Of a stretch of 64,000 nt of DNA, positions 4,682-53,694 are shown in pieces. The position numbers and the translations under genes were made by a program. Within the stretch, counting starts at the first letter, position 1. Each line of letters opens with the position of its first letter. The stretch spans positions 11,923-75,922 of the forward strand of contig DASTIS010000230.1 of NCBI GenBank assembly GCA_035717365.1, read 5' to 3'. The notes under the pieces were generated by a model. That model worked only from the letters and a program-made list of their open reading frames with translations, searched no databases and had not been told where the DNA came from. The DNA comes from Rhodanobacteraceae bacterium (lineage in GTDB: Bacteria > Pseudomonadota > Gammaproteobacteria > Xanthomonadales > Rhodanobacteraceae).

Positions 4682-5080
4682 TCAGCCGGCAGCGACCAGA
4701 CGCTCGAAGATGCGTTCGATCTTTTCCTTGAGGGTGACGGCAGTGAACGGCTTGACGATGTAACCGTTCACGCCGGCCTGCGCCGCCGCGATGATCTGTT
4801 CGCGGCTGTTCTCGGCGGTGACCATCAGTACCGGCAACGGTTTCAGCGCCGGATCGGCGCGGATCGCCCGCAAAAGATCGATGCCGGTCATCTCGGGCAT
4901 GTTCCAGTCGGTGACGACGAAGTCGATGCTGCTGGCGCGCAGCACGGCCAGCGCGCTGTTGCCGTCGCCGGCCTCCTGGATGTTGGCACCGCTGAAGCCC
5001 AACTCACCCAGCAGGTTGCGGATGATTCGTCGCATGGTGGAAAAATCGTCCACCACCAGGATCTTCATGTTCTTGTCCAC
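4682..5080 (-). CDS. cheY: Chemotaxis response regulator CheY
   Basis: 132 aa single REC domain: [14 protein letters not shown]...[17 protein letters not shown]...LMVTAE...GYIVKPFT. Confidence 0.96.
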
Positions 5081-5099: not shown

Positions 5100-5828
5100 T
5101 CAGGCGTTGTCCCGCCAGTCGTTCATGTGTGCGCGCAGCCGGACCACGGCCTGTCCGTGGATCTGGCAGACGCGGGATTCGCTGACGCCGAGCACTGCAC
5201 CGATCTCCTTGAGATTGAGTTCCTCGTCGTAGTACAGCGACATCACCAGTTTTTCGCGTTCCGGAAGCCGCGTGATGGCTTCGGCCAGCGCCTCGCGCAA
5301 ACCGTCGTCCTCCAGACCGTCGGATGGGCCGGGGCTGGCGGTGTCGGCGACTTCCATCGCAACATCCCCGGTCTCCGGGCTCGAGAGGCTGAGGATCCGC
5401 GAACTCGCGGCGTCGGCCAGGATTTGGTTGTATTCGTTGCTGTCGATACCCAGCCGCCGCATGATCTCGGCGCCGTCGGCATCGCTGCCGGTCTCGTGCT
5501 CGACCTGGCGCATCGCCTCGGCCACTTCGCGGACCTTGCGATGCACCGAGCGGGGCGTCCAGTCGCTGCGGCGCAATTCGTCCAGCATCGCGCCGCGGAT
5601 GCGGATGCCGGCAAACGTCTCGAAACTTGCCTCGCGTGTCGGCGTGTAGTTCCTTGCCGCTTCCAGCAGGCCGATCATTCCCGACTGGATGAGGTCCTGC
5701 ACATCGACACTGGGCGGCAGCCGCGCCATCAGGTGATAGGCGATGCGACGCACCAGCGGCGTGTGCGCACGCACCAGCTCCTCGTCCGGTATGCGCTGGA
5801 CTTGCAGGTATTCGGCGCTCGCGTTCAT
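5100..5828 (-). CDS. fliA: Flagellar sigma factor sigma-28 (FliA)
   Basis: 242 aa. Region 2 reads [17 protein letters not shown]. The region 4 HTH reads [25 protein letters not shown]. The start overlaps the fleN stop. Confidence 0.95.
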
Positions 5829-6721
5829 GCCGCTTGTGCTCCCCGGCCCATGCGGTGTTCCGCGAAGAATCCGATCCGGCCGTGCGCTTCGGGCGAGTTC
5901 TCCCAGTTATCGGCAGCCATCGCCAGTTTCTTGAACGCCAGGGCGGACGGGCTGCCCGGCCAGGCGTCGACGACGCCCATCTGGCGACGCACCGCGCGAC
6001 GCAGGTACTCGTCGTGCGGGATCGCCCCGCACAACTGCAGGTTGACATCGAGGAAACGCGTGGTGACGCGCTCGAGCTTCTCGAACAACTGGCGTCCGTG
6101 GCTGGCGTTGTGCACCATGTTTGCCACGACCTTGAAACGGCGCATGCCATGTTCGTGTGCGAGCACCTTGATCAGGGCGTAGGCGTCGGTCAGCGAGGCA
6201 GGCTCGTCGCAGGCCACCAGCAGGACGTCATCGGCGGCGACGCTGAACATCGAGACGCTTTCGGAGATGCCGGCGGCGGTGTCGACGATCAGGAATTCGG
6301 GCGGCTGTGGATAATCGTCGAAGGCACGAATCACCGCCGCATACTCGGCGCGCGACATCCCCACCATGCGTTGCTTCCCGGAGGTGGCCGGCACCACCTT
6401 CAGCCCGTGTGCTGCCGGCAGCACCAGGTCGCCGAGGCCGCATTCGCCGGCCAGCAGTTTGGCGATGTTGCATTTGGGCTGCAGGCCAAGCAACACGTCC
6501 ACGTTGGCCAGCCCCAGGTCGGCGTCCAGCAGCAGCGTGTCGCGCCCGGCCATGGCCAGCGCCAACCCGAGGTTGACGGCAACGCACGATTTGCCGACAC
6601 CGCCCTTGCCGCCGGTCACGGCGATGACCCTTGGCCGCTGCTGAGGTTGCGCAGCGGGCGAGGCAAAAATATTGTTCTTGAGCGTCTGCATGATGCGGTC
6701 CAGACCTTCTGCCTGATTCAT
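5825..6721 (-). CDS. fleN: Flagellar number regulator FleN/FlhG (MinD-type ATPase)
   Basis: The internal ATG at 6721 gives MNQAEGLDRIMQTL...VIAVTGGKGGVGKSCVAVNLGLALA (deviant Walker A). The upstream 140 codons of the track ORF are Arg/Trp/Cys-rich out-of-context sequence overlapping flhF. Confidence 0.92.
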   Translation of the reverse strand: MNQAEGLDRIMQTLKNNIFASPAAQPQQRPRVIAVTGGKGGVGKSCVAVNLGLALAMAGRDTLLLDADLGLANVDVLLGLQPKCNIAKLLAGECGLGDLVLPAAHGLKVVPATSGKQRMVGMSRAEYAAVIRAFDDYPQPPEFLIVDTAAGISESVSMFSVAADDVLLVACDEPASLTDAYALIKVLAHEHGMRRFKVVANMVHNASHGRQLFEKLERVTTRFLDVNLQLCGAIPHDEYLRRAVRRQMGVVDAWPGSPSALAFKKLAMAADNWENSPEAHGRIGFFAEHRMGRGAQAA

Positions 6722-8088: not shown

Positions 8089-10191
8089 TCATCGCCCCAG
8101 CGCGGAAACAAGCCGCACGCGACGGTTGTCCGGCACCTCGTTGTAGGCCAGCACGTGCAGTGCCGGTGCGGCGTGGCGCGTGAAGCGCGCCAGCCATGAC
8201 CGCAGCTGCGGCGCCACCAGCAGTACCGCCGGCTCGCCGGCCATTTCCTGGCGTTGCGCGGCGTCGGCGACGTTCTGCTGCAGCCGCTCTGCCAGCCCCG
8301 GTTCCACCGAGGCGCCGGCAGGACCACTGCCCTGGAGTGACTGGAGCAATATTTGTTCCAACTCCGGCGCCAGGGTAATGACCGGAATTTCGCTTCCCAA
8401 ACCACTGATTTCCTGCACGATCTGTCGGCCGAGCGCAATGCGCACCATCGCCGTGAGCGCGCCGGATTCCTGACTCTGCGATGCGTGTTCCGCCAACGAT
8501 TCGACGATCCCCCGCATGTTGCGGATGGGAACGTGCTCGGCCAGCAGGTTTTGCAGCACCTTCACCACCACGCCGAGTGCAAGGCGCTTGGGTACGAGGT
8601 CTTCGACGAGTTTGGGCGCTTCGGCGGAGAGCCGGTCCAGCAATTGCTGGACTTCCTGGTGGCCGAGCAGTTCGTGCGCGTGTGTCTGCAGGATCTGCGA
8701 AAGGTGGGTGGCGATCACGGTGGCTGCATCGACCACGGTGTAGTCCAGCGTTTGCGCGTGCTCGCGCAAACCGGGTTCGATCCACACCGCCTCGAGGCCG
8801 AATGCCGGGTCGCGCGTTGCGATGCCGTCTACATGGCCGTGCACGCGGCCGGGATTGATGGCCAGCAACCGCTCGTGGTGGACTTCGGCTTCGCCCACCG
8901 GCACGCCGAGAAGACTGATGCGGTAATGGCTGGCGCCGAGATCGAGGTTGTCGCGGATGTGTACGGGTGGCACCAGGAAGCCCAGGTCCTGCGACAGCTT
9001 GCGGCGCACGGACTTGATGCGACCCAGCAATTCGCCACCCTGGTTGCGATCCACCAGCGGAATCAGGCGGTAACCGACTTCCAGGCCGATGGTGTCGACG
9101 GCGGTGACATCGTCCCAGCTCAGTTCAATTCGTTCGGCGGCAGGTACGGGCTCGGCGTCGGCCGCGGCGCTGGCGCGCTCCCGTGCGGCCTTCTCGGCGT
9201 CGCGCCGGCGACGGTCCAGCATCCAGGCGCCGCCGCCGCACAGGCCCCCGAGCAGAAGAAACGCGACGTTGGGCATGCCCGGAATCAGGCCCATCACGCC
9301 CAGCACGACAGCCGTGACCGCCAGCGCGCGCGGCTGTCCGAACACCTGCGCCAGCACCTGCTTGCTCATGTCCTGCGAACGCGAGACGCGGGTCACGATC
9401 ACCGCGGTGGCGACCGACAGCAGCAGCGCCGGGATCTGCGCCACCAGGCCGTCGCCGATGGTCAGCAACGTATAGGTATGCGCGGCCTCGCTGATGGACA
9501 GGCCGTGCTGCAGCACGCCCACCATGAAGCCGCCGACAATGTTGATCAGCAGGATCAGGATGCCGGCCGTGGCGTCCCCGCGCACGAATTTGGAGGCGCC
9601 GTCCATGGACCCGTAGAAGTCCGCTTCCTCACGCACTTCCTGGCGACGCTCGCGCGCTTGTTCCTGCGTCAGCAATCCGGCGTTGAGGTCGGCGTCGATC
9701 GCCATCTGCTTGCCCGGCATCGAGTCCAGGGTGAAACGCGCGGTCACTTCCGACACGCGTGTGGCGCCCTTGGTGATCACCACGAAGTTGATGATCGTGA
9801 GGATCGCGAACACCACCAGGCCGACGGCGAAGTTGCCTCCGATCACGAACTCGCCGAAGGCTTCGATCACCTTGCCGGCGGCGCCGGGACCGGCATGACC
9901 ATGCAACAACACCACGCGTGTCGAGGCGATGTTCAACGCCAGGCGCAGCAGCGTCGCGCCCAGTACGACGGTGGGGAATGCGGCGAATTCCAGTGGCCGC
10001 ATCACGTACACCACCGCCAGCACGATCACCAGCGACAGCGCGATGTTGAAGCTGAACAGCACGTCCAGCATGAAAGGCGGCAGCGGCAACACCACCATTG
10101 CCAGCAGCACCAGCATCACGATGGGCGCGCCGATCCCGCGCCTGCCGATGCGGCCGAATTGTTGGACGAGTGCCGGCGCGGCCATCTTCAT
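8089..10191 (-). CDS. flhA: Flagellar export gate protein FlhA
   Basis: 700 aa with a typical FlhA N-terminal TM domain (FAAFPTVVLGATLLRLALNIASTRVVL) and cytoplasmic ring domain. The start overlaps the flhB stop. Confidence 0.97.
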   Translation of the reverse strand: MKMAAPALVQQFGRIGRRGIGAPIVMLVLLAMVVLPLPPFMLDVLFSFNIALSLVIVLAVVYVMRPLEFAAFPTVVLGATLLRLALNIASTRVVLLHGHAGPGAAGKVIEAFGEFVIGGNFAVGLVVFAILTIINFVVITKGATRVSEVTARFTLDSMPGKQMAIDADLNAGLLTQEQARERRQEVREEADFYGSMDGASKFVRGDATAGILILLINIVGGFMVGVLQHGLSISEAAHTYTLLTIGDGLVAQIPALLLSVATAVIVTRVSRSQDMSKQVLAQVFGQPRALAVTAVVLGVMGLIPGMPNVAFLLLGGLCGGGAWMLDRRRRDAEKAARERASAAADAEPVPAAERIELSWDDVTAVDTIGLEVGYRLIPLVDRNQGGELLGRIKSVRRKLSQDLGFLVPPVHIRDNLDLGASHYRISLLGVPVGEAEVHHERLLAINPGRVHGHVDGIATRDPAFGLEAVWIEPGLREHAQTLDYTVVDAATVIATHLSQILQTHAHELLGHQEVQQLLDRLSAEAPKLVEDLVPKRLALGVVVKVLQNLLAEHVPIRNMRGIVESLAEHASQSQESGALTAMVRIALGRQIVQEISGLGSEIPVITLAPELEQILLQSLQGSGPAGASVEPGLAERLQQNVADAAQRQEMAGEPAVLLVAPQLRSWLARFTRHAAPALHVLAYNEVPDNRRVRLVSALGR

Positions 10192-22548: not shown

Positions 22549-23891
<1,343 letters not shown>

Positions 23892-23895
<4 letters not shown>

Positions 23896-25118
23896 GACAA
23901 GGTTCCCTGGTGTTGCGGATCGGTGCCGGACCGCGAGTGGAGCACATGCAGGTCGCTGGGCAGGATGCGGGCGTCGCCCGCCAGCGGCAGGCGCAGCTCG
24001 AAGCGGGCGCCACGCGGGCTGGGCGCAAGCAACAGTTCGCCGCCGTGCGCACGTGCGACGCTGCGGGCCATGGCAAGGCCGAGGCCGGTGCCGCCGGCGC
24101 GGGTGGTGAAAAAAGGTTCGAAGATGCGTTCGGCTGTGGCGGCGTCAACGCCCGGCCCGTCGTCGTGCACGGCCAACGTCACGCCGCCGTCGTGGCGGGC
24201 GGCCTGCAAAAATACGCGCGGCGAAAACGCGAGGGCGTTGTCGAGCAGGTTCACGAGCGTGCTCACCAGCAGGTTGCGCTGGCCGTGCACGCAGGCGCCG
24301 CTGCAGGTGTCGTCGATGTCGATGCCGCACGTCGCGCCGGCGGCGATGTTGCCGATGGCGTCGCGAAGCAGGCCGGACACGTCCAGGGTTTCGTTGGTGT
24401 CGGCGTCGCCGCGCGCCAGCGCCAGGGTTTGGTCGATCAGCCGTTGGAGATCGACGAGACGCATCAGCGCCTTCCCGGCCATGCGTTGTGCAGCTTGCGC
24501 GTCGAGTCCGCCGTCTGCGATGCGCGACAGGTACAGCACCGCGGTGGACAAGGGCGTGCGCAATTGGTGCGCGAGGCGGGCGCGTTGCTGGTCGACGTCG
24601 GAGATCTGACGTTGGCGCTCGATGCCGCTGCGGCGCGCATGCGCTTCGCTTTCGTCGGTCAGGAGCAGTACGCAACCGCCGTCGGCGGTTGCGCGGCGCG
24701 ACACCCCGAGACGGCGGCCATCGGACAGACACGGCGTGCCGTCGCTGTCGCTGCGCGCGTGCAGCGCGTGGGCAGCAACATCGCGCCATGGCTGACCGAG
24801 CAGCGATTGGCCCAGCAATTCGTTGGCGCCGGCGTTGCATTCGCGCACGCGACCGTCGCCGTCGATCATCAACGCCGCGCCCGGCAGCGCGCCCAGCAAG
24901 GCCTGCAGGCGGTCGGCGACGCGTTCGCGCTCTGCCAGTTCAGCCAGGCGCGCCCGTTGCGCGGCATCGCGTTCGCGGGTCAGTTCGTCCACGCGCTCCT
25001 GCAGCGCGGACCACGACGACTGCAATTGCCGCGAGGTCTCGTTGAACTGCGCGAAGGCGAGTTCCAGCGCCTCGACGCGTTGCGGGTCGGCAGGACGCAG
25101 TAGCGGGACGGCACTCAT
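23892..25118 (-). CDS. fleS: Sensor histidine kinase FleS (cytoplasmic, PAS-type)
   Basis: The internal ATG at 25118 gives MSAVPLLRPADPQRVEALELAFAQFNETSRQL... The H-box is RLAHQLRTPLS. The N, G1 and G2 blocks are LLDNALAF, DDGPGV and GGTGLGLAM. The stop overlaps the fleR start. The upstream 72 codons of the track ORF are Arg/His-rich and unconvincing. Confidence 0.85.
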
Positions 25119-25320
25119 ACCCGCTTCGATGCAATTATCGAACCAGTCTTTAAAAGCTTGCCAGGTCAACGACTTGTTGGTTGCCTGCGGCACGCGCGCC
25201 AGAAAATCGACGCGGCATCCGGCGTGTCCATGGCGGTGCGGGTGGCGACGATGCAAACGGCATTTGCCCCTGCTGGCCAGTCGTGCCACGGGGATCGCCG
25301 CTGACGGGATTCCGGCCTGG

Positions 25321-26436
25321 TCAGGCCACGGCATCGGCTCCCCACAGCGCTTCCATGCCGACGTTCATGCCCATCTCGTCGAGATCGACGACTTCGGTTA
25401 TCGCGTGTGACGGGACCCTTGCGCTGCGGCGAATCGGAACGCTGACGCGCAATCCATCACGGGTCGTGATCGACGCGACTTTCGGCCGCTCCCCCGAGTC
25501 ACCCCGATGGGTCACCACGCCGATGCTGCCGTTGCGCAGGCGTACACCGGTGCCAGGCGGGTAAACCCCGAGTGCCTTGATGAACAATGCCGTGTAGCGC
25601 TCGTCGAACGCCGTACCCTCGTTGAGGAACAGCCACCGCAGCGCCACGTTGGGCTGCATTGCCGGTCTGTGCCTGCGGTCGGACACGCGAGCGCAATAGA
25701 TGTCGCCAAGCGATACCAGTTGCGCAGGGACGCTGATTTCGTCGGCAGTTTTGCCCGTGGGATAGCCGCTGCCGTCAGGGTGCTCGTGATGATCGCGCAC
25801 GACTTCCAGCCACAGCGGGTCGCCTACCCCATGTTCGCGCAGTATCGCCACCCCACGCTCGCAATGGCCCTCCACCTCGGCGCGTTGCGCGTCACTCAAC
25901 TTTCCCTTCAGCGCGTGGAGGTGTTCCTGCAGCGCGAGCATGCCGATGTTCATGCTCAGCGCGGCTGCCACGGTGGAGGTCAACGGCGCCTCGTCCAATC
26001 CGATCGCCGTACCCGTGATGCAGCTCGTGATCGCAACGTTCACGGAGTGTCGAATTGCATAGGGTTCATCGCGGCACATCAGGATCGATGCCAGTGCCAC
26101 GTCGGCGTTCAGCCGGCATGCCCTGCGTACCTTGCCTGCGATCCGCAGCAATGCTGGGGCAAAATCCACATCGGCCGGGTCGGAGAACAGGGCCTGCAAA
26201 TGCCGACGTGCTCCAAGCACCAGGGCAAGCGGCGATTTGCGGAAGTACGTGTCGTCGGGCGTGGCTGGCGCGTACGCGTACGGTTGCGAGGCGTGCCGCA
26301 CCAGCGTTTCGAGTTGCTTGTCGCTGGTGGCGACGAGTCCCTCGCGCAACAGCAACGTGCCCTTGCCGTCGCGCACGTTGCAAGGCAGCGAGTCGCCGAC
26401 TTCGAGCCGAGACAGGTCAAAAGTACGGTCTGGCAT
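25321..26436 (-). CDS. HD-GYP domain c-di-GMP phosphodiesterase-type protein
   Basis: 371 aa from the ATG at 26436 (TGGAG lies 7 nt upstream; the track start at 26454 is a GTG). HD and GYP signatures are HSVNVA...HHEHPDGSGYPTG. The N-terminal region is of the kind commonly fused to HD-GYP proteins. Confidence 0.88.
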   Translation of the reverse strand: MPDRTFDLSRLEVGDSLPCNVRDGKGTLLLREGLVATSDKQLETLVRHASQPYAYAPATPDDTYFRKSPLALVLGARRHLQALFSDPADVDFAPALLRIAGKVRRACRLNADVALASILMCRDEPYAIRHSVNVAITSCITGTAIGLDEAPLTSTVAAALSMNIGMLALQEHLHALKGKLSDAQRAEVEGHCERGVAILREHGVGDPLWLEVVRDHHEHPDGSGYPTGKTADEISVPAQLVSLGDIYCARVSDRRHRPAMQPNVALRWLFLNEGTAFDERYTALFIKALGVYPPGTGVRLRNGSIGVVTHRGDSGERPKVASITTRDGLRVSVPIRRSARVPSHAITEVVDLDEMGMNVGMEALWGADAVA

Positions 26437-26522
26437 GCGAGTGCTCCAAGGCACTTGATCGGGGCAGGTGAACGGGTACCGTCGGGAGGCTCCCCGGGGC
26501 TACGCACAGCTCCATGCAAGCG

Positions 26523-26549
26523 ATATCGGCAGGCCCGGATAAATCTTGA
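26523..26549 (-). promoter_or_regulatory. Sigma-28 (FliA) promoter motif in front of the HD-GYP gene
   Basis: The minus strand reads TCAAGATT-TATCCGGGCCT-GCCGATAT (8-N11-8 architecture; consensus TAAAGTTT-N11-GCCGATAA), about 85 nt upstream of the ATG at 26436. Confidence 0.6.
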
Positions 26550-26585
26550 GGTGGCGGGGCCAACGCACGGATCCTGGGCATCGGA

Positions 26586-26612
26586 TCAAGTTCCGGCGAA
26601 AGGTGCCGACAA
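26586..26612 (+). promoter_or_regulatory. Sigma-28 (FliA) promoter motif in front of the GGDEF gene
   Basis: The plus strand reads TCAAGTTC-CGGCGAAAGGT-GCCGACAA. Only 7 nt separate the -10 element from the ATG at 26620. Confidence 0.5.
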
Positions 26613-26619
26613 CCTCGAT

Positions 26620-28626
26620 ATGAAACATTGGGTCCTGGCATCGCTGTTGGCGCTCATGGCGCCGGCGCTGCTGGCTGGCCCCGAGCGGGTGGCGAATGTC
26701 CTCAACGACCTGAGGGTGCATGGTTACGCGTCGCCGGCGACAGCGGCCGCGCGCCTGCAGGCGGCGCGGGATGCCGACGATCCGAACATGCCGCTGGACC
26801 AGAAGCGCCGCTATTCCGCCGCGCTGATTTGGCTGGCGTTGCCCAACCGGAACATGCCAATGTTGAAGGAGGCATTGGACCAACTGCGACCGGTGGCGCA
26901 GCCAGGGCAATGCCCGCCGTGCCGTGCCACGTGGCTGATCGGCAAGGCGCAGGAGAGCATCTTCCGGCACCGTTTGAAGCAGGCTCGGACCTACCTGAGG
27001 CAGGTCGCGAGCCTCGTTCCAGCGAACGACCCCGCGATGCGCCTGGAACTGCTCCGTGCGCAGGTGCGCTTCGAGCGTGCCCAAGGGGCATTGAATACGG
27101 CTTTTGGCAAGGCAATGGCGGCATTGAGCTTGGCCGACCAGCTGGGGAACAGCGCCGAGCGCATCGAAATACTGGACCATCTGGCAACCATGAACGCTCA
27201 ACTCGGCTTCGTGGACCGGGCGGTGCCGCTGGCACGGGAGGCCGCGTCGCAGGCACAAGCTGCCGGGTTCACGGCCGGCCTGGGCACGATACGCATTGAC
27301 GAGGCCTTCATCTATGCGAGTCGCGACGAACGTGACAGGCAACGGCACGCGTTGATGCAAGCCTTGGCCATCTCGAGGAGCGTACCCGGGCTGGGTTATC
27401 TCGAAGTCACCGCACGCGGCAACCTGTCCGACTACTACCTCAACCAAGGCGACTATGCCTCCGCGTTGAAACAGGCGCAGGAAGCCGCGGTGCTGGCCCG
27501 CGCGAGCAACGATCAGTACAGCGAATCGATTGCGCTCGCCAACAAAGGTATCGCCACGGTCCGGATGGGACAGACCGACGCGGGGTTGTCGTTGCTGCAC
27601 CGGTCGCTCGAGCTCGCGCGGCGGGCCGGACATCTGCGTACGGAAGTGGATATCAACCGGGAGATCGTAAAGGTACTCGAGTCTGCAGGACGCTACCGCG
27701 AGGCGCTGCAGGCGCAGAGCGCCGTCGAGGAGGTAAATCGCAAGATCACCGAGCAGGAGCGCGACAGCGCGGTCCTGGAGCTCCAAGCCAAATACGACGA
27801 CGAACACAAGAACCGCGAGATCGATCGGCTTTCAGCACAGGACCGCCTGAAGGGGGCCGAGAACGCCGCGCAACGCTGGCAACAGCGGTTGTGGATCACG
27901 CTGGCCGGTGTTGCATTGCTGGCCGCGTCGTTCATGGTCCTTTGGTTGATGCGCGCACGCAGGGCCAACCGGAGGCTTGTCGAGGATGTGGCCAATCTCA
28001 CCGAACAATCCTCGATGGATGCGCTGACCGGGATCTTGAACCGACGGAGTTTTTCTGCCCTGATGCAAGGCTACACGCGCAGCGACAACACCCGGCTTGG
28101 TCTGGCCCTGGTGGACATCGACGATTTCAAGCAGGTCAACGACAGTCTTGGTCACGACGTCGGCGACGTGGTGTTGGTTGAGATTGCGCGGCGATTGCAG
28201 TTGCTCGGGCGCAGCCGCGACCACGTGGCACGTTGGGGCGGCGAGGAGTTCGTGTTGGCGCTGCCTGATGTTTCGCCTCAATCCCTGCCGAACGTGGCTC
28301 GGTGCCTGCTGGATGCGGTGACCCGACCTCCGGTCCGAGTGGGTGGGCGTGAAGTCCGCGTCAGCGTCTCGGCAGGTTTCGTCGCGCATCCGCCGACGCC
28401 CGGCACGCCGTGGGGGCGAGCCCTGCGCCTTGCCGACGTGGCGATGTATCGGGCCAAGCGGGACGGGGGCAATCGCGCGGTTTGCGTCATCACGGTTGGC
28501 CACGCGCTCGATCGCGACGTTCTGGATGATGCGGACCTGGATGCGGCCATTCGCTCCGGGTCGATCGTGGTCGCCGAAATCCAGGGGTCGGCGATGGCAT
28601 CGTCGTTCGTGGGGGCTCCCGGCTGA
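26620..28626 (+). CDS. Membrane diguanylate cyclase with a periplasmic TPR-like domain (GGDEF, I-site present)
   Basis: 668 aa from the ATG at 26620. The signal peptide is MKHWVLASLLALMAPALLAG, followed by about 400 aa of TPR-like helical repeats and a TM (LWITLAGVALLAASFMVLWLM). The GGDEF domain reads LTGILNRRSF...VDIDDFKQVNDSLGHDVGD...RSRDHVARWGGEEF (RxxD five residues before GGEEF). The first 371 codons of the track ORF are antisense to the HD-GYP gene. Confidence 0.9.
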   Translation: MKHWVLASLLALMAPALLAGPERVANVLNDLRVHGYASPATAAARLQAARDADDPNMPLDQKRRYSAALIWLALPNRNMPMLKEALDQLRPVAQPGQCPPCRATWLIGKAQESIFRHRLKQARTYLRQVASLVPANDPAMRLELLRAQVRFERAQGALNTAFGKAMAALSLADQLGNSAERIEILDHLATMNAQLGFVDRAVPLAREAASQAQAAGFTAGLGTIRIDEAFIYASRDERDRQRHALMQALAISRSVPGLGYLEVTARGNLSDYYLNQGDYASALKQAQEAAVLARASNDQYSESIALANKGIATVRMGQTDAGLSLLHRSLELARRAGHLRTEVDINREIVKVLESAGRYREALQAQSAVEEVNRKITEQERDSAVLELQAKYDDEHKNREIDRLSAQDRLKGAENAAQRWQQRLWITLAGVALLAASFMVLWLMRARRANRRLVEDVANLTEQSSMDALTGILNRRSFSALMQGYTRSDNTRLGLALVDIDDFKQVNDSLGHDVGDVVLVEIARRLQLLGRSRDHVARWGGEEFVLALPDVSPQSLPNVARCLLDAVTRPPVRVGGREVRVSVSAGFVAHPPTPGTPWGRALRLADVAMYRAKRDGGNRAVCVITVGHALDRDVLDDADLDAAIRSGSIVVAEIQGSAMASSFVGAPG

Positions 28627-28708
28627 CGTTTGCCCGGACGTCTGCGGTTCCGTGGGCGCGGCATGGGTTTCGGCGCTGCCGCCCCGTGATGGCCGTGCTT
28701 GTAAGGGT

Positions 28709-30121
28709 TTACACGGCTCCGCTGGCAGTGAGGTTCGCGTGCAGCTGGTATTTGCGCAGCTTCTCCACCAACGTCGTGCGACGCATGCCAAGCAGTTTGG
28801 CCGCGTGCGCGACGACGCCATCGGAGGCCGCCAGCGCCTGCCGGATCAAACCGACTTCGATGTCCGCCAGGTGGTCGCGCAGGTTGAGCCCGCCGTTGGG
28901 CAGCAGATCGGTCCCATCATCGATGTCCGCAGGCATGGCGTTGTCGTGGACCATCATCTCCGGCAATCGTGGGATATCGGACCGCCCATCGTTGCGGTGC
29001 TTGTGGTATTGGCGCGGCAAGTCCTCGGTACGCACCGGCAGGGCGGGGTACAGGATCGCCAGGCGCTCGATGAGGTTGCTCAATTCGCGTACGTTGCCGG
29101 GCCAGTCGTAGCCGGCCAACGTGTGCAGCGCCTCGTTCGTCAGGCGCGCTGGCGACAGGCCGCGGCGACGCAGACGCTGGTTGAATTCCTCGATCAGGAC
29201 GGGCAGATCCTCGGCGCGCGCGCGCAGCGGCGGCAGCTCCACGGGAAACACGTTGAGGCGGTAGAACAAGTCCTCGCGGAACTTGCCGTCAAGGATCGCC
29301 TGGCCGAGGTTGCGGTGCGTGGCCGCGATGATTCGAACGTTGCAGCGTATCGACTTGTTGCTGCCAACGCGCTCGAAACGGCGTTCCTGCAGCACGCGTA
29401 GCAGCTTGACCTGCATCGGCAGGCTCATGTCGCCGATCTCGTCCAGCAACAGGGTGCCGCCCTCGGCCATCTCGAACCGGCCCTTGCGGGTGCTGATGGC
29501 ACCGGTGAAGGCGCCTTTTTCATGCCCGAACAACTCGCTTTCCAGCAGGTCCGGCGGAATGGCGCCGCAGTTGATGGCGATGAACGGTTTGTCGCAGCGC
29601 GGCGAGCATTCGTGGATGAACTGCGCTACCAGTTCCTTGCCGGTGCCCGATTCGCCCAAAACCAATACGCTGGAGTCGAAGGGCGACACGCGCCGGATCA
29701 GGCTGTGCAGGAGGCGCACCGGCTCGGAATGGCCGACGAACCGGCGGTCGTCGCTGCTGCGGTTGCCGATGCTGCGCGGCGCGCACATGCGCAGCATCGC
29801 ACCCAGCGACGCCATCTGGGGTGGTGCCCCAATGGGGTGCACCGCGAAGCCCAGTCGACGCAGTGCCTGCAAATGCGGCGAGCCCTCGCAGACCAGCAGC
29901 GGCACCTCTCGATGGCGTGCGCCCTGCAGTTTCAGATGCGACTGCAGCGTGGACATTGTCTCATCGGGACCTGCATACACGGCGCAGCAGTTCATTGGAT
30001 TGTCTTGATCGTCGGCTTGGTCGATGGTCAGCGGAAGGTAACCGATGCTTTCAATGAAGGAGCTGACGGTTGAGGCGCGGGTCGTGTCTGATTCGACGAC
30101 CAGGACGGGAAACACGTGCAT
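28709..30121 (-). CDS. fleQ: Flagellar master regulator FleQ (sigma-54 activator with a non-phosphorylatable FleQ-type N-domain)
   Basis: 470 aa. The AAA+ domain has GESGTGKE, the GAFTGA loop (EKGAFTGAI), [20 protein letters not shown] and [13 protein letters not shown]. The C-terminal HTH reads [19 protein letters not shown]. The N-domain lacks the REC acidic pocket pattern. Confidence 0.9.
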
Positions 30122-30422: not shown

Positions 30423-30992
30423 CTACTGCTGTGGCGGCTGCGGCTCGCGCCGTGATTCGGCCAGCTGACGCCGGTGTTGGCGGAACACCAGGTGCTCGAT
30501 GCTCTGCCGGATCCCTTCGTCCAGCTCGTCGAAGGCGACGAATCCGCCGGCTCCCCGGGGGGCCGGCGCCACGCGCCCGGGCAGTTCGAGGGGCATCCCG
30601 ACACAGCTGTCGAAATAGATGCGGACCAGCACCGCCATATCCGCTTCGGGCGCCTTCCAGTCGGGGATCACGATGCCGCGCGCATTGAAGCGCACCGTGC
30701 GCGGCGGCGGCATTTGCACGTGACCCAGCAGGTACCGGTTGAACATCGCCAGCAGAAGGTCCAGCTTGGCGTCGATGCGCGCCAGCGCGGCGGAGACGGC
30801 TTCATCCTCGGGCGGTTCGCTGCCGCCACGCTCGCCGAGCATGTTCAACGTGGCCAGGACGTCGGCATCCTGCTCTTCCATCCGTGCTTGCCGGGCTGGA
30901 TCCAGTGGTGCATCAAGCGTCTCGCATTCAACGCGCATCGCTCCTTCCCAGGTGATGCGATCGCCGAAGAACTGCCAAGGGTCGTGGGTCAT
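30423..30992 (-). CDS. Hypothetical protein, possibly an atypical PilZ-type c-di-GMP receptor (function uncertain)
   Basis: 189 aa from the ATG at 30992 (GGGAGA lies 7 nt upstream; the track start at 31019 is a GTG). The C-terminal half is beta-rich (VRFNARGIVIPDW...MAVLVRIYFDSCVGMPLELPGRV...GFVAFDELDE), followed by FRQHRRQLAESRR. It is the last gene after fliS and the fliT-like genes. The family call is by eye only. Confidence 0.55.
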   Translation of the reverse strand: MTHDPWQFFGDRITWEGAMRVECETLDAPLDPARQARMEEQDADVLATLNMLGERGGSEPPEDEAVSAALARIDAKLDLLLAMFNRYLLGHVQMPPPRTVRFNARGIVIPDWKAPEADMAVLVRIYFDSCVGMPLELPGRVAPAPRGAGGFVAFDELDEGIRQSIEHLVFRQHRRQLAESRREPQPPQQ

Positions 30993-31115
30993 CCCGGGTT
31001 CTCCCGTGTTACGTGTCACGGTCGGTCGCAGCCGTTGCCGGATTGTATGCGATGATGTTTGCGCATGGCTACGCGGCCTGTCGGGTCGCAGATGCGCAGC
31101 ATGGCGCGACGGCGT

Positions 31116-47032: not shown

Positions 47033-47059
47033 TGATCGGCCGGGAGCGCGGAATCTTGA
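47033..47059 (-). promoter_or_regulatory. Sigma-28 (FliA) promoter motif for cheV
   Basis: The minus strand reads TCAAGATT-CCGCGCTCCCG-GCCGATCA, about 30 nt upstream of the cheV ATG. Confidence 0.7.
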
Positions 47060-47115
47060 GCAATGGAGCGACGGCCGGCGCGAGTCGCGCGGTGACAGGC
47101 ACGTGTCCGGATTCG

Positions 47116-47131
47116 TGGCACGCAGCTTGCT
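47116..47131 (+). promoter_or_regulatory. Sigma-54 promoter motif for the MCP-like/flgA operon
   Basis: The plus strand reads TGGCACGCAGCTTGCT (perfect consensus), 94 nt upstream of the ATG at 47226. Confidence 0.7.
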
Positions 47132-47136
47132 TTGAG

Positions 47137-47163
47137 TCAAGTCGTGCGGTGATCTGCCGATGC
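47137..47163 (+). promoter_or_regulatory. Sigma-28 (FliA) promoter motif, tandem to the sigma-54 motif
   Basis: The plus strand reads TCAAGTCG-TGCGGTGATCT-GCCGATGC. It starts 6 nt after the sigma-54 motif and lies about 62 nt upstream of the ATG at 47226. Confidence 0.55.
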
Positions 47164-47225: not shown

Positions 47226-48533
47226 ATGGGATTCTTGTTGAGCAATCAGGTCCTCGCCTTGGCCGCAGCGCTGGCAGCGGGCGACCATGAACGAGTGCGC
47301 GCGCTGACACGGCGCCATCCGGCCGCGGCACGTGCCATGGCGCCGTTGTTGTCGGCGCGGGCGCAACGAGAGCGTGAAGATGCATTGTTGCAGGCCGTGG
47401 AGCAGCAGGGGCTGGTGCTCGGCGGAACGCGTACGTTGGGACAACGGGTACAGGAGTTGCAGACTCAGTTGGGCAGCGCGCGTCAACATGTCGACGTGTT
47501 GGCACAGGCTCGCGACGGAATTACGTCGATCCTTCAGCAAGCCCACGCCCCGTTGCAACAAGGCGTGGCCGGCGTCGACGAGGGTAGCCGCGGCATCCGC
47601 GAACTGGATGGCCGCTTGTGTCTGTTGCGCGGAACGTTGTCGGGGATGACCCGCACGCACGAACGCTTCAATGGGTTTTTCGAGGAGATCGCGCGCCTGA
47701 CCGCGGCGATCCAGGACATCGCGCACCAAACCAATCTGGTGGCCCTCAATGCCGCCATCGAGGCGGCGCGGGCCGGTGAATCGGGGCGGGGATTCGCCGT
47801 GGTTGCGGACGAAGTCAAGCAACTGGCCGAGAAGACCGCACAGACCACGGCGGAAATCGAGACCGTGACCGCAACCGTGGGTGAATTCTCGGGCGGCCTG
47901 GAAGAAACGATCGACGGCAGCCTGAAGCGGTTGGACCAGGCCAGCGCGGGCGCCGACGCGGTGCGTGTCGCACTCGAGGGGGCCGACCGGGCGCTGCAAC
48001 AAGCGCTTTCGCAGACTGAAGCCCTGCAGCAAGCCGGCGATGTCCTGGACAGCCAGGTACGCAGCGGGGGTGAAATGGTGGCCGCGCTGCAGCGCGGCCG
48101 CGACGAATGTGCGCGTCAGGTAGACGCGGTAGCGCATGCTGCGATCGCTGCCCAGCAATCCGCGCTGCAGGTCGTGGTGCGGCCGGACACGGCGGATGCC
48201 GCTACCGTCATCCAGGTGCTGCGCGAGTCCTGTGCCGCCCTGGGCCATAGCCTCGATCTGGTGGCGCGCGCGCCGTCGCGGGTGGACCGCCGCTGGCTGA
48301 GCGGGACGGCGTTGCGCACCTGCCTGACACGATTGCAGCGCAGCATGCCGATGCTGCCGGTGCTGGACACGATGCAGGAGAGCGTGCGGCGCCTGGAACA
48401 ATGCCGCGAGAAGCTGGACTCCGCGCTCGCCGACGGTGAAACCCAGCGTTGCGGAGAATTGGTTCCCGTAATGCAGGGCGACCTGGACGCGATCCAGAAA
48501 CAACTTGGCTTGGTGGTGGAAGCATGCGCGTGA
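47226..48533 (+). CDS. Methyl-accepting-chemotaxis-protein-like signalling protein without obvious transmembrane topology, with a Cys-rich C-terminal region of unknown family
   Basis: 435 aa. The hairpin-tip signature of MCP signalling domains is present: [46 protein letters not shown]. There is only one weakly hydrophobic N-terminal stretch ([18 protein letters not shown]). No HAMP domain is recognisable. The stop at 48531-48533 lies inside flgA. Confidence 0.85.
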
Positions 48534-53667: not shown

Positions 53668-53694
53668 TTATCGGCCGCATTCGCATGAACTTGA
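53668..53694 (-). promoter_or_regulatory. Sigma-28 (FliA) promoter motif for the FliK-like/FlhB-C-like operon
   Basis: The minus strand reads TCAAGTTC-ATGCGAATGCG-GCCGATAA (the -10 is identical to the consensus), 26 nt upstream of the GTG at 53641. Confidence 0.75.

What the first reader, a model, noticed from the sequence alone, without database searches (positions are those of the whole stretch)
25321..28626. Divergent GGDEF (TPR, I-site) and HD-GYP genes with back-to-back sigma-28 motifs, wedged between fleSR and fleQ
Seen in the sequence:
- A 165-nt (183 nt with the re-set HD-GYP ATG at 26436) divergent spacer carries TCAAGATT-N11-GCCGATAT (minus strand, 26523-26549) and TCAAGTTC-N11-GCCGACAA (plus strand, 26586-26612). 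The two -35 elements are 36 nt apart.
- One gene encodes a signal-peptide/TPR/TM/GGDEF protein with an intact GGEEF and an RxxD I-site (RSRDHVARWGGEEF).
- The other encodes an HD-GYP protein (HHEHPDGSGYP).
- The plus-strand -10 element ends only 7 nt before the ATG at 26620. The cyclase mRNA would therefore be leaderless or nearly so.

Established: GGDEF domains make c-di-GMP and HD-GYP domains hydrolyse it. c-di-GMP antagonises FleQ in Pseudomonas. In enterobacteria, FliA controls a phosphodiesterase and a PilZ brake.

Inference: both a synthase and a hydrolase appear to be late flagellar (FliA) genes here, physically inserted between the master regulator and the class II two-component system. 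That suggests a built-in c-di-GMP feedback loop on the flagellar cascade. The periplasmic TPR domain would act as an input.
Basis: partly seen in the sequence, partly recalled or inferred. Interest (0 to 1): 0.62.

Follow-up and report, generated by a model that had tools for sequence, protein, structure and literature searches.

The report
Flagellar-sigma-controlled c-di-GMP gene pair
Two cyclic-di-GMP signalling genes sit between the flagellar regulators fleQ and fleSR, each behind a conserved late-flagellar (sigma-28) promoter. One looks like a working cyclase made from a leaderless mRNA, and the supposed "hydrolase" lacks its catalytic HD residues and is more likely a sensor or adaptor.

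Summary
Both sigma-28 motifs, the 183-nt spacer, the 7-nt gap to the ATG at 26620 and the fleQ/fleSR flanks are as described. Independent assemblies from two runs span the whole arrangement.

- **Motif significance.** TCAAG-N13-15-GCCGA occurs 10 times in the window against 0.65 expected. The other sites precede fliC, flgK, cheV, cheW, an MCP and fliA itself.
- **Promoters travel with the genes.** 21 of 33 distinct orthologues of the HD-GYP-like gene carry the motif, against 2.5% of control windows, mostly in non-flagellar contexts. The TPR-GGDEF family keeps a "-10 octamer, 7 nt, ATG" layout in about 10 members, including Stenotrophomonas and Burkholderiales homologues. This predicts a leaderless mRNA.
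- **The cyclase looks active.** GGEEF, the RxxD I-site and the catalytic residues are invariant across the family.
- **The "HD-GYP" is degenerate.** Met-Asn replaces the HD dyad and Met replaces the HDxGK lysine, invariantly across the family. It is probably not a hydrolase; a c-di-GMP receptor or adaptor role fits better (compare PA2572 and DvhD).
- **Placement is lineage-specific.** Relatives show fleQ–GGDEF–fleS, or fleQ–MN-GYP–fliE.
- **Feedback on FleQ is untested.** This FleQ lacks two of the five c-di-GMP-binding residues.

No transcript data exist. This is a new variant of a known theme, FliA-controlled c-di-GMP genes.

The parts
26586..26612 (+). Sigma-28-type promoter of the cyclase gene: TCAAGTTC-N11-GCCGACAA. 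The predicted transcription start is the A of the ATG at 26620.
   Evidence: Sequence. Motif enrichment. The same layout occurs in L006, L001, L173, L175, L007, L008 and L010. The P. aeruginosa fliC -10 spans -15 to -8 (PMC12784957), so +1 falls 8 nt after the octamer's last base.
26620..28626 (+). Membrane-anchored diguanylate cyclase. It has a signal peptide, a periplasmic TPR region (about 21-423) with an invariant CxxC, a transmembrane segment (424-444) and a GGDEF domain (465-619) with GGEEF and an RxxD I-site.
   Evidence: Pfam. Alignment A1 with invariant D499, D501, K504, N507, D516, R531, D534, R538, GGEEF and K613. Hydropathy.
26523..26549 (-). Sigma-28-type promoter of the MN-GYP gene: TCAAGATT-N11-GCCGATAT. 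The predicted start is near 26515.
   Evidence: Sequence. Kept upstream of orthologues in 21 of 33 distinct regions, against 2.5% of control windows. Kept in L177 and L181 at the same distance from the start.
26437..26515 (-). Predicted 79-nt leader of the MN-GYP mRNA. It begins with an ATG (26515-26513) that opens a 32-codon upstream reading frame (to 26417) overlapping the main start. A GGAG lies at 26447-26444.
   Evidence: Same length and same ATG position in L177 and L181, but not in L087. No codon-position bias, so the peptide itself is not shown to be conserved.
25321..26436 (-). Degenerate HD-GYP-family protein ('MN-GYP'), 371 aa. It has an N-terminal beta/helical domain like that of Bd1817, an HD-GYP fold with M162-N163 in place of H-D and M166 in place of K, intact HHExxDGSGYP, and an extra C-terminal beta domain (297-349).
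   Evidence: Pfam HD_5. Alignment to 4mcw and 5z7c. Invariance in A2 and in metagenome loci. Model with pLDDT 83.9. Foldseek matches to 9rbz, 4mcw and 3tm8.
28709..30121 (-). fleQ, the master sigma-54 activator, flanking the pair.
   Evidence: Pfam FleQ, Sigma54_activat and HTH_8. Matches P. aeruginosa FleQ structures at E=4e-111.
23892..25118 (-). fleS-like histidine kinase, with the start re-set to the ATG at 25118 (408 aa).
   Evidence: Pfam. In-frame GC3 is 0.68 in the 25119-25334 extension against 0.83 in the body.
25130..25145 (-). Candidate sigma-54 promoter of fleSR (TGGTTCGATAATTGCA), lying between the MN-GYP stop codon and the fleS start.
   Evidence: GG-N10-GC scan scores 9 of 11 specified consensus positions, like the sites before fliD and fliE. 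Not tested further.
22549..23895 (-). fleR-like sigma-54-dependent response regulator.
   Evidence: Pfam.
5100..5828 (-). fliA (sigma-28), the factor inferred to read both promoters.
   Evidence: NCBIfam FliA, 296 bits against a cutoff of 201. Pfam sigma-70 regions r2, r3 and r4.

Best explanation
These are two separate late-flagellar (class IV, FliA/sigma-28-dependent) transcription units that encode c-di-GMP signalling proteins. In this Oleiagrimonas-like Rhodanobacteraceae lineage they have ended up side by side in the gap between fleQ and fleSR.

(1) The plus-strand promoter starts transcription at, or within 1-2 nt of, the ATG at 26620. This gives a leaderless mRNA for a catalytically competent, product-inhibited diguanylate cyclase. 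Its large periplasmic TPR/CxxC domain is the signal input.

(2) The minus-strand promoter gives an mRNA with a leader of about 79 nt for a degenerate HD-GYP-family protein. This protein has lost the HD dyad and the active-site lysine but keeps HHE...GYP. Most likely it does not hydrolyse c-di-GMP. It more likely acts as a c-di-GMP-binding sensor or as a protein-protein adaptor.

Because FliA becomes active only when the hook-basal body is complete and FlgM is exported, c-di-GMP production and read-out by this pair would be confined to cells that have just built a flagellum.

Shown here: motif presence, enrichment and conservation; domain and residue content; gene order.

Inferred: dependence on FliA, the transcription start sites, enzymatic status, and any link to FleQ.
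For: - Motif enrichment is 10 against 0.65 expected. The other sites precede fliC, flgK, cheV, an MCP, cheW, a fliK-like gene and fliA.
- fliA is present.
- MN-GYP orthologues in dsbA/MFS, Dyella and other contexts keep T[CA]AAG-N14/15-GCCGAxA 50-135 nt before the start. This holds in 21 of 33 distinct regions against 49 of 1997 control windows, p=4e-26. It also holds in L177 and L181.
- GGDEF family: the octamer plus 7 (6-8) nt plus ATG layout is seen in window, L006, L001, L173 (two genes), L175 (two genes), L007, L008 and L010. Spacer sequences differ between them. L003 keeps only the -10 element and L171 keeps neither element.
- The -10 to +1 geometry comes from P. aeruginosa fliC (PMC12784957) and E. 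coli aer, whose functional -10 is GCCGACAT (PMC2859248).
- Leaderless mRNAs make up 14% of mRNAs in Xanthomonas (PMC3300014).
- There is no Shine-Dalgarno sequence before 26620.
- The catalytic and I-site residues are invariant.
- HD is replaced by MN and K by M, invariantly.
- The fold is HD-GYP; the best match is the non-hydrolysing c-di-GMP receptor DvhD (PMC13090378).
- The YN-GYP variant PA2572 is inactive yet has regulatory effects (PMC3411652). Degenerate HD-GYPs can act through protein-protein contacts (bioRxiv 10.1101/2021.11.05.467447).
Against: - There is no transcript, TSS or fliA-mutant evidence. Only soil-metagenome DNA runs hold this sequence.
- 12 of 33 MN-GYP orthologue regions lack the motif.
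- Among GGDEF family genes, L171 and most of the distant homologues lack the motif.
- MN-GYP keeps five of the metal-ligand positions (H130, H191, H216, H217, D245), so residual or altered catalysis cannot be ruled out from sequence alone.
- No intrinsic terminator was found after either gene, so read-through into fleSR is possible.
Confidence: 0.6

Rival explanations
1. One reading: the pair is a true synthase/hydrolase couple, and the MN-GYP protein still degrades c-di-GMP using its remaining ligands. Together they would form a FliA-driven turnover loop acting on FleQ.
For: HHE, H130, H191, D245 and GYP are retained and invariant. The fold is HD-GYP. HD-GYP metal sites are known to be heterogeneous, for example PA4781 (4r8z, among the Foldseek matches).
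Against: - H-D is replaced by M-N and the HDxGK lysine by M.
- Known HD-to-other variants (PA2572, HnoD, DvhD) do not hydrolyse c-di-GMP (PMC3411652; bioRxiv 10.1101/2021.11.05.467447; PMC13090378).
- FleQ lacks the R185-N186 equivalents.
Confidence: 0.15
2. The minus-strand sigma-28 promoter matters mainly because it reads through into fleSR. This would give a positive loop from FliA back to the class II regulators, with the MN-GYP gene as a passenger.
For: Same strand, a gap of only about 200 nt, and no terminator-like site. The unrevised ORF map even shows a 14-nt overlap.
Against: - The promoter stays with the MN-GYP gene in genomes where no fleS follows it.
- L006 has fleS without either the gene or the motif.
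- The overlap disappears once the fleS start is re-set, and a sigma-54-type site lies directly before fleS.
Confidence: 0.15
3. The cyclase is translated from Met13 (ATG at 26656), as the automatic gene call has it, so the mRNA has a leader of about 36 nt and is not leaderless.
For: The collection's gene call for this protein is 656 aa. Three homologues were also called from the equivalent internal Met.
Against: - MKxWVL plus a hydrophobic core is conserved at the protein level upstream of Met13.
- Starting at Met13 would remove the charged N-region of the signal peptide.
- There is no Shine-Dalgarno sequence before 26656.
- The octamer-7-ATG spacing is conserved across orders.
Confidence: 0.1
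4. The motifs are non-functional look-alikes, and both genes are read by the housekeeping sigma factor.
For: One or two of the 10 window matches lie inside genes and are probably chance: 62039, and possibly 5910.
Against: - No sigma-70-type promoter was found in 24900-28900.
- The enrichment and cross-genome conservation are strong.
Confidence: 0.05

Closest known systems
FliA-dependent c-di-GMP genes of E. coli/Salmonella (pdeH/yhjH, ycgR) and Pseudomonas (bifA; flgZ)
   Same: c-di-GMP signalling genes placed in the last tier of the flagellar cascade. bifA expression falls in a P. aeruginosa fliA mutant (PMC4866697).
   Different: - The known cases are an EAL phosphodiesterase and PilZ receptors. 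Here the FliA-type promoters serve a cyclase and a degenerate HD-GYP.
- The cyclase mRNA is predicted to be leaderless.
- The genes lie inside the fleQ-fleSR regulatory locus.
PA2572 (YN-GYP) of P. aeruginosa; HnoD of Shewanella; DvhD of Desulfovibrio vulgaris (PDB 9rbz)
   Same: An HD-GYP fold with the HD dyad substituted. These proteins have no detectable c-di-GMP hydrolysis but do have a regulatory role. DvhD binds c-di-GMP as a receptor (PMC3411652; bioRxiv 10.1101/2021.11.05.467447; PMC13090378). DvhD is the best Foldseek match.
   Different: - M-N rather than Y-N, S-E or S-Q.
- HHE is kept here, whereas it is lost in HnoD and DvhD.
- No REC or PAS domain; instead a Bd1817-like N-terminal domain and an extra C-terminal beta domain.
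- Sequence identity is only 21-25%.
Bd1817 family (DUF3391-HD-GYP), e.g. Bd1817 and PA4108
   Same: The overall architecture aligns over 315 columns with 3tm8: N-terminal beta strands, then long helices, then HD-GYP.
   Different: - Pfam DUF3391 does not score on this protein.
- PA4108 is an active phosphodiesterase with an intact HD.
- This protein has an additional C-terminal beta domain.
RpfG-GGDEF protein complexes of Xanthomonas campestris
   Same: An HD-GYP protein that works through direct contact with GGDEF proteins (as summarised in PMC6637768). This is a possible model for how the neighbouring pair might cooperate.
   Different: No interaction has been tested here. RpfG has a REC domain and an intact HD.

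Membership tests
Sigma-28 (FliA) dependent promoter / late flagellar regulon | -35 TAAAGTTT-like and -10 GCCGATAA-like octamers separated by 11 nt | tested here: met
   TCAAGATT-N11-GCCGATAT and TCAAGTTC-N11-GCCGACAA. Consensus and a functional GCCGACAT variant are given in PMC2859248.
Sigma-28 (FliA) dependent promoter / late flagellar regulon | The same motif stands in front of canonical late genes of the same genome, and fliA is present | tested here: met
   Sites before fliC, flgK, cheV, cheW and an MCP. fliA at 5100-5828.
Sigma-28 (FliA) dependent promoter / late flagellar regulon | Conservation of the site upstream of orthologues | tested here: met
   MN-GYP: 21 of 33 regions against 2.5% of controls. 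GGDEF family: about 10 genes with fixed spacing to the ATG.
Sigma-28 (FliA) dependent promoter / late flagellar regulon | Transcription start at the predicted place and dependence on FliA | not testable with these tools
   No RNA runs hold this sequence.
Active diguanylate cyclase (GGDEF) | GG(D/E)EF active site plus Mg/GTP-binding residues | tested here: met
   GGEEF, D499, D501, K504, N507, D516, R538 and K613 are invariant in A1. Pfam GGDEF 130.7 bits.
Active diguanylate cyclase (GGDEF) | RxxD inhibitory site five residues before GGDEF | tested here: met
   R531-S-R-D534-HVARW-GGEEF. R531 and D534 are invariant.
Active diguanylate cyclase (GGDEF) | c-di-GMP synthesis | not testable with these tools
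   Requires an enzyme assay.
HD-GYP c-di-GMP phosphodiesterase | His-Asp metal-binding dyad and the lysine of HDxGK | tested here: not met
   M162-N163 and M166 align to H-D and K of PmGH and V-cGAP3. They are invariant in 35 orthologues and about 50 metagenome loci.
HD-GYP c-di-GMP phosphodiesterase | HHExxDGxGYP motif and HD-GYP fold | tested here: met
   HHEHPDGSGYP. Foldseek E=6e-9 to 9rbz, 4mcw and 3tm8.
Degenerate HD-GYP receptor/adaptor (PA2572, HnoD, DvhD type) | Loss of catalytic residues with the fold retained | tested here: met
Degenerate HD-GYP receptor/adaptor (PA2572, HnoD, DvhD type) | Binds c-di-GMP or a partner protein without hydrolysis | not testable with these tools
   Requires binding and activity assays.
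Leaderless mRNA | Transcript begins at the start codon, with no Shine-Dalgarno sequence | tested here: inconclusive
   Geometry predicts +1 at A26620: octamer plus 7 nt, with the fliC -10 spanning -15 to -8 (PMC12784957). No Shine-Dalgarno sequence is present and the spacing is conserved. The start site was not measured.
c-di-GMP-responsive FleQ | R144, R185, N186, E330 and R334 of P. aeruginosa FleQ | tested here: inconclusive
   R126, E and R are kept, but R185-N186 are Q167-F168. Residue list from PMC8335546.

The most novel reading that the evidence does not exclude
MN-GYP proteins are an unrecognised, widespread class of non-hydrolytic c-di-GMP sensors or adaptors that belong to the FliA regulon. 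The TPR-GGDEF family is a partner cyclase whose leaderless, sigma-28-timed expression has been kept from Xanthomonadales to Burkholderiales. Together they would form a dedicated 'just-flagellated cell' c-di-GMP module, for example for surface or envelope-redox sensing through the periplasmic TPR/CxxC domain. The fleQ-fleS junction would be a recurrent landing site for such genes.
Probability: 0.2. Interest if true: 0.65.

Novelty: new variant of a known kind. Interest (0 to 1): 0.48.

Why it matters
FliA-timed c-di-GMP control is known mainly from a phosphodiesterase and PilZ brakes that keep c-di-GMP low or slow the motor in swimming cells. Here the late flagellar tier appears to switch on a cyclase and a catalytically degenerate HD-GYP instead. 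That would raise or locally read c-di-GMP exactly when the flagellum is finished.

Two features are directly testable and uncharacterised:
- the conserved leaderless sigma-28 layout of one cyclase family, which spans two bacterial orders;
- the invariant Met-Asn substitution in a large HD-GYP subfamily.

Both can be studied in cultured Dyella, Frateuria, Rhodanobacter or Stenotrophomonas.

The result also corrects an annotation habit. 'HD-GYP domain-containing phosphodiesterase' is the database name for a family that lacks the HD.

Tried and rejected
- **Genome-contig scan with the GGDEF alignment.** The best hit was only 37% identical and no close relatives were recovered. It did later yield the distant homologues L007, L008 and L010.
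- **RNA evidence.** Only soil- and sediment-metagenome DNA runs were found. No transcript data.
- **Rfam scan of 25000-28800 at E<=1.** Nothing found, so there is no known riboswitch or leader RNA.
- **Sigma-70 promoter and terminator scan of 24900-28900.** No promoter, and one intragenic terminator-like site that is below chance expectation.
- **HD-GYP/fleS operon by a 14-nt overlap.** Rejected. The 25119-25334 extension has low GC3, and a sigma-54-type site lies before the ATG at 25118.
- **Upstream reading frame in the MN-GYP leader as a conserved peptide.** Mismatches are spread evenly over codon positions, so there is no support.
- **Conserved synteny of the pair.** None of about 80 metagenome loci with MN-GYP relatives has fleS, fleQ, fleR or the cyclase within the fetched flanks. 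Only the L177 and L181 types (fleQ-MN-GYP-fliE) and L006 (fleQ-GGDEF-fleS) are flagellar.
- **NCBIfam.** No specific family model exists for either protein.
- **Literature searches.** Searches for a FliA-dependent HD-GYP or leaderless FliA transcripts found nothing specific.

Full report
**1. What is in the sequence**

- TCAAGATT-N11-GCCGATAT lies on the minus strand at 26549..26523.
- TCAAGTTC-N11-GCCGACAA lies on the plus strand at 26586..26612.
- The -35 elements are 36 nt apart.
- The plus-strand octamer ends 7 nt before the ATG at 26620.

Pfam assigns these genes:
- 26620-28626(+): TPR_12 plus GGDEF.
- 25321-26436(-): HD_5.
- 23892-25334(-): PAS/HisKA/HATPase kinase.
- 22549-23895(-): REC, sigma-54 AAA+ and HTH_8 regulator.
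- 28709-30121(-): FleQ.
- fliF lies downstream and fliD upstream.

The 'wedged between fleSR and fleQ' description is therefore right. The source is annotated elsewhere as a metagenome-assembled Oleiagrimonas sp. (Rhodanobacteraceae). Logan contigs of 4704 nt from two separate runs cover 24734-29437 without a break, so the gene order is not a binning or assembly chimera.

**2. Are the motifs more than chance?**

TCAAG-N13-15-GCCGA occurs 10 times in the window against 0.65 expected, and no shuffle out of 100 reaches 10. Besides the two sites in question, the matches stand in front of these genes:
- flagellin (35266);
- flgK (38576);
- a cheV-like gene (47036);
- an MCP gene (47137);
- a fliK-like gene (53671);
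- cheW (56466);
- fliA itself (5910, with a 12-nt spacer).

One further match (62039) lies inside an MCP gene and is probably chance. fliA is encoded at 5100-5828 and scores 296 bits on NCBIfam against a cutoff of 201. TCAAGnnn-N11-GCCGAnnn is therefore the local FliA-type site, and the two sites in the spacer are among the best matches to it.

**3. Do the promoters go with the genes?**

This was the most informative test, and both genes pass it.

*The HD-GYP-like gene.* It has hundreds of orthologues (51-72% identity) in Rhodanobacter, Dyella, Frateuria and Fulvimonas.
- In a Rhodanobacteraceae MAG it lies between dsbA and an MFS transporter gene.
- In Dyella mobilis it lies among unrelated genes.
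- Both still carry the site about 90 nt before the start: TCAAGGTT-N11-GCCGATAC and TAAAGTTT-N12-GCCGATAA.
- Over metagenome loci, 21 of 33 distinct upstream regions have the motif, against 49 of 1997 control windows from the same loci (2.5%; p=4e-26).
- The two closest relatives (71-72% identity) show fleQ, then MN-GYP, then a remnant of the fleR C-terminus, then fliE-fliF. They have TCAAGCCA-N11-GCCGATAA or TCAAGTTG-N11-GCCGATAG at the same distance from the start as in the window.

*The cyclase.* It has only 13 close homologues.
- Those on long contigs lie between dus and metK, not near flagellar genes.
- One 3-kb contig (76% identity) shows fleS divergent from the cyclase, followed by fleQ, with no HD-GYP-like gene.
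- Wherever the cyclase sits, its upstream region ends with a sigma-28-type -10 octamer, then 7 nt (6-8), then the ATG, while the spacer sequences differ.
- Close family members with this layout: window, L006, L001, L173 (two genes) and L175 (two genes).
- Homologues at 32-37% identity with this layout: Stenotrophomonas nitritireducens (L007), Piscinibacter (L008) and Paucibacter (L010).
- L003 keeps only the -10 element, and L171 keeps neither.
- The motif occurs about 0.3 times per kb per strand in all fetched loci. Its landing at one fixed offset from the start codon in about ten genes is therefore not chance.

**4. Leaderless mRNA**

- In the P. aeruginosa fliC open complex the -10 element GCCGATAA spans -15 to -8 (PMC12784957).
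- In E. coli aer the start lies 6 bp after the octamer, and the aer -10 is GCCGACAT (PMC2859248).
- With 7 nt between the octamer and the ATG, the start falls on the A of ATG or 1-2 nt before it.
- There is no Shine-Dalgarno sequence before 26620.
- The N-terminus MKxWVL plus a hydrophobic core is conserved, so 26620 is the start rather than the Met13 chosen by an automatic caller.
- Leaderless mRNAs are common in this order: 14% of mRNAs in Xanthomonas (PMC3300014).

**5. The cyclase**

- All 13 family members keep GGEEF, the RxxD site five residues upstream, and D499, D501, K504, N507, D516, R538 and K613.
- One transmembrane segment at 424-444 separates a periplasmic TPR region of about 400 residues from the GGDEF domain.
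- The periplasmic region carries an invariant CxxC (C98, C101).
- By sequence this is an active, product-inhibited enzyme with a periplasmic input.

**6. The 'HD-GYP' protein is degenerate**

- In the alignments to PmGH (4mcw) and V-cGAP3 (5z7c), the H-D of 'HDIGK' is M162-N163 and the lysine is M166.
- These residues are invariant in 35 orthologues.
- They are also invariant in metagenome relatives down to 31% identity. A sister clade has R...F/Y-D.
- H130, H191, HHE, GYP and D245 are kept.
- The AlphaFold model (pLDDT 83.9) matches HD-GYP structures. The best match is DvhD bound to c-di-GMP (9rbz). Bd1817 (3tm8) aligns over 315 columns including the N-terminal domain.
- A C-terminal beta domain (297-349) has no match.

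Precedents for what such a protein does:
- DvhD does not hydrolyse c-di-GMP and acts as a receptor (PMC13090378).
- PA2572 (YN-GYP) has no detectable activity but regulates virulence (PMC3411652).
- HnoD and ECA3548 are further inactive variants that work through protein contacts (bioRxiv 10.1101/2021.11.05.467447).

I therefore do not file this protein as a c-di-GMP phosphodiesterase. It works, most likely, like a receptor or adaptor.

**7. Relation to fleSR and FleQ**

- The ORF map suggests a 14-nt overlap between the HD-GYP-like gene and fleS.
- The 25119-25334 extension has in-frame GC3 of 0.68 against 0.83 in the gene body.
- A sigma-54-type site (TGGTTCGATAATTGCA, 25145-25130) lies 11 nt before the ATG at 25118. 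fleS therefore probably starts there, with its own promoter.
- Read-through from the sigma-28 promoter cannot be excluded, because no terminator was found.
- FleQ aligns to P. aeruginosa FleQ at E=4e-111. It keeps the R144, E330 and R334 equivalents but has Q-F in place of R185-N186 (residue list from PMC8335546 and PMC9303241). Whether c-di-GMP acts on this FleQ is open.

**8. Mechanism and ranking**

The best-supported picture is two independent class IV units whose products make, and probably read, c-di-GMP only once the hook-basal body is finished. The cyclase is gated by a periplasmic signal. The placement between fleQ and fleS is a lineage-specific rearrangement. Three variants of this junction exist among close relatives, which hints that the junction repeatedly captures such genes. 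Regulation rests on the promoters and not on position.

| Explanation | Confidence |
|---|---|
| Two independent class IV units (best) | 0.60 |
| A still-active hydrolase | 0.15 |
| Read-through to fleSR as the main function | 0.15 |
| Translation from Met13 | 0.10 |
| Non-functional motifs | 0.05 |

**9. Comparison with what is known, and novelty**

FliA control of c-di-GMP genes is established for pdeH and ycgR in enterobacteria (my own knowledge) and for bifA in Pseudomonas (PMC4866697). New here are:
- the kind of genes under that control, a cyclase and a degenerate HD-GYP;
- the conserved leaderless layout;
- the invariant M-N family.

I found no paper describing any of the three. This is a new variant of a known kind, of moderate interest, and it is readily testable in cultured relatives.

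Noticed in passing
window 47036-47160: A second back-to-back pair of sigma-28-type sites: TCAAGATT-N11-GCCGATCA on the minus strand before a cheV-like gene, and TCAAGTCG-N11-GCCGATGC on the plus strand before the MCP gene at 47226-48533. A sigma-54-type TGGCACGCAGCTTGC lies at 47116-47130(+) between them.
   Followed up: partly
window 30423-31019 (-): A protein with an atypical PilZ domain (tPilZ, PF16823, E=5e-18) is encoded just upstream of fleQ. This is a third c-di-GMP-related gene in the regulatory part of the cluster.
   Followed up: no
window 25119-25334 and 25130-25145 (-): The long fleS ORF is probably over-extended: in-frame GC3 is 0.68 in the extension against 0.83 in the body. A sigma-54-type site, TGGTTCGATAATTGCA, ends 11 nt before the ATG at 25118, so the fleS mRNA may also have almost no leader.
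   Followed up: partly
window 5910-5934 (-): A sigma-28-type site (TCAAGAAA-N12-GCCGATAA) lies inside the 3' end of the fleN-like gene, just upstream of fliA. This may mean FliA regulates its own gene.
   Followed up: no
window 26417-26515 (-); L177, L181: The MN-GYP promoter has the same 'octamer, 7 nt, ATG' layout as the cyclase promoter. The ATG opens a 32-codon upstream reading frame that overlaps the main start by 17 nt. Its position and length are the same in two relatives, but not in L087 (ACG). No codon-position bias was seen, so the peptide is not shown to be conserved.
   Followed up: partly
L177 2076-2252; L181 2045-2254: In the closest relatives, a fragment resembling the C-terminal HTH part of FleR lies between the MN-GYP gene and fliE. 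It looks like a remnant of a deleted fleSR.
   Followed up: partly
window 26911-26922 (protein residues 98-101); alignment A1: An invariant CxxC (C98, C101) lies in the periplasmic part of the cyclase family. It is a possible disulfide or redox input.
   Followed up: no
L001 ~9935-9948; L003 ~4686-4697; L173, L175 upstream regions: Cyclase orthologues outside the flagellar cluster (L001 and L003 lie between dus and metK) share a GAAAGTTGACA-like element ending 52-53 nt before the ATG. It is absent from the window and from L006.
   Followed up: no
L142-L155 (metagenome loci): A sister clade of the MN-GYP family has R in place of the first His ligand and F/Y-D in place of H-D, again with HHE and GYP intact.
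   Followed up: no
window 53671-53694 (-): A perfect TCAAGTTC-N11-GCCGATAA lies 26 nt before the GTG of a fliK-like gene (Flg_hook domain). This is an unusual gene to find behind a late-flagellar promoter.
   Followed up: no
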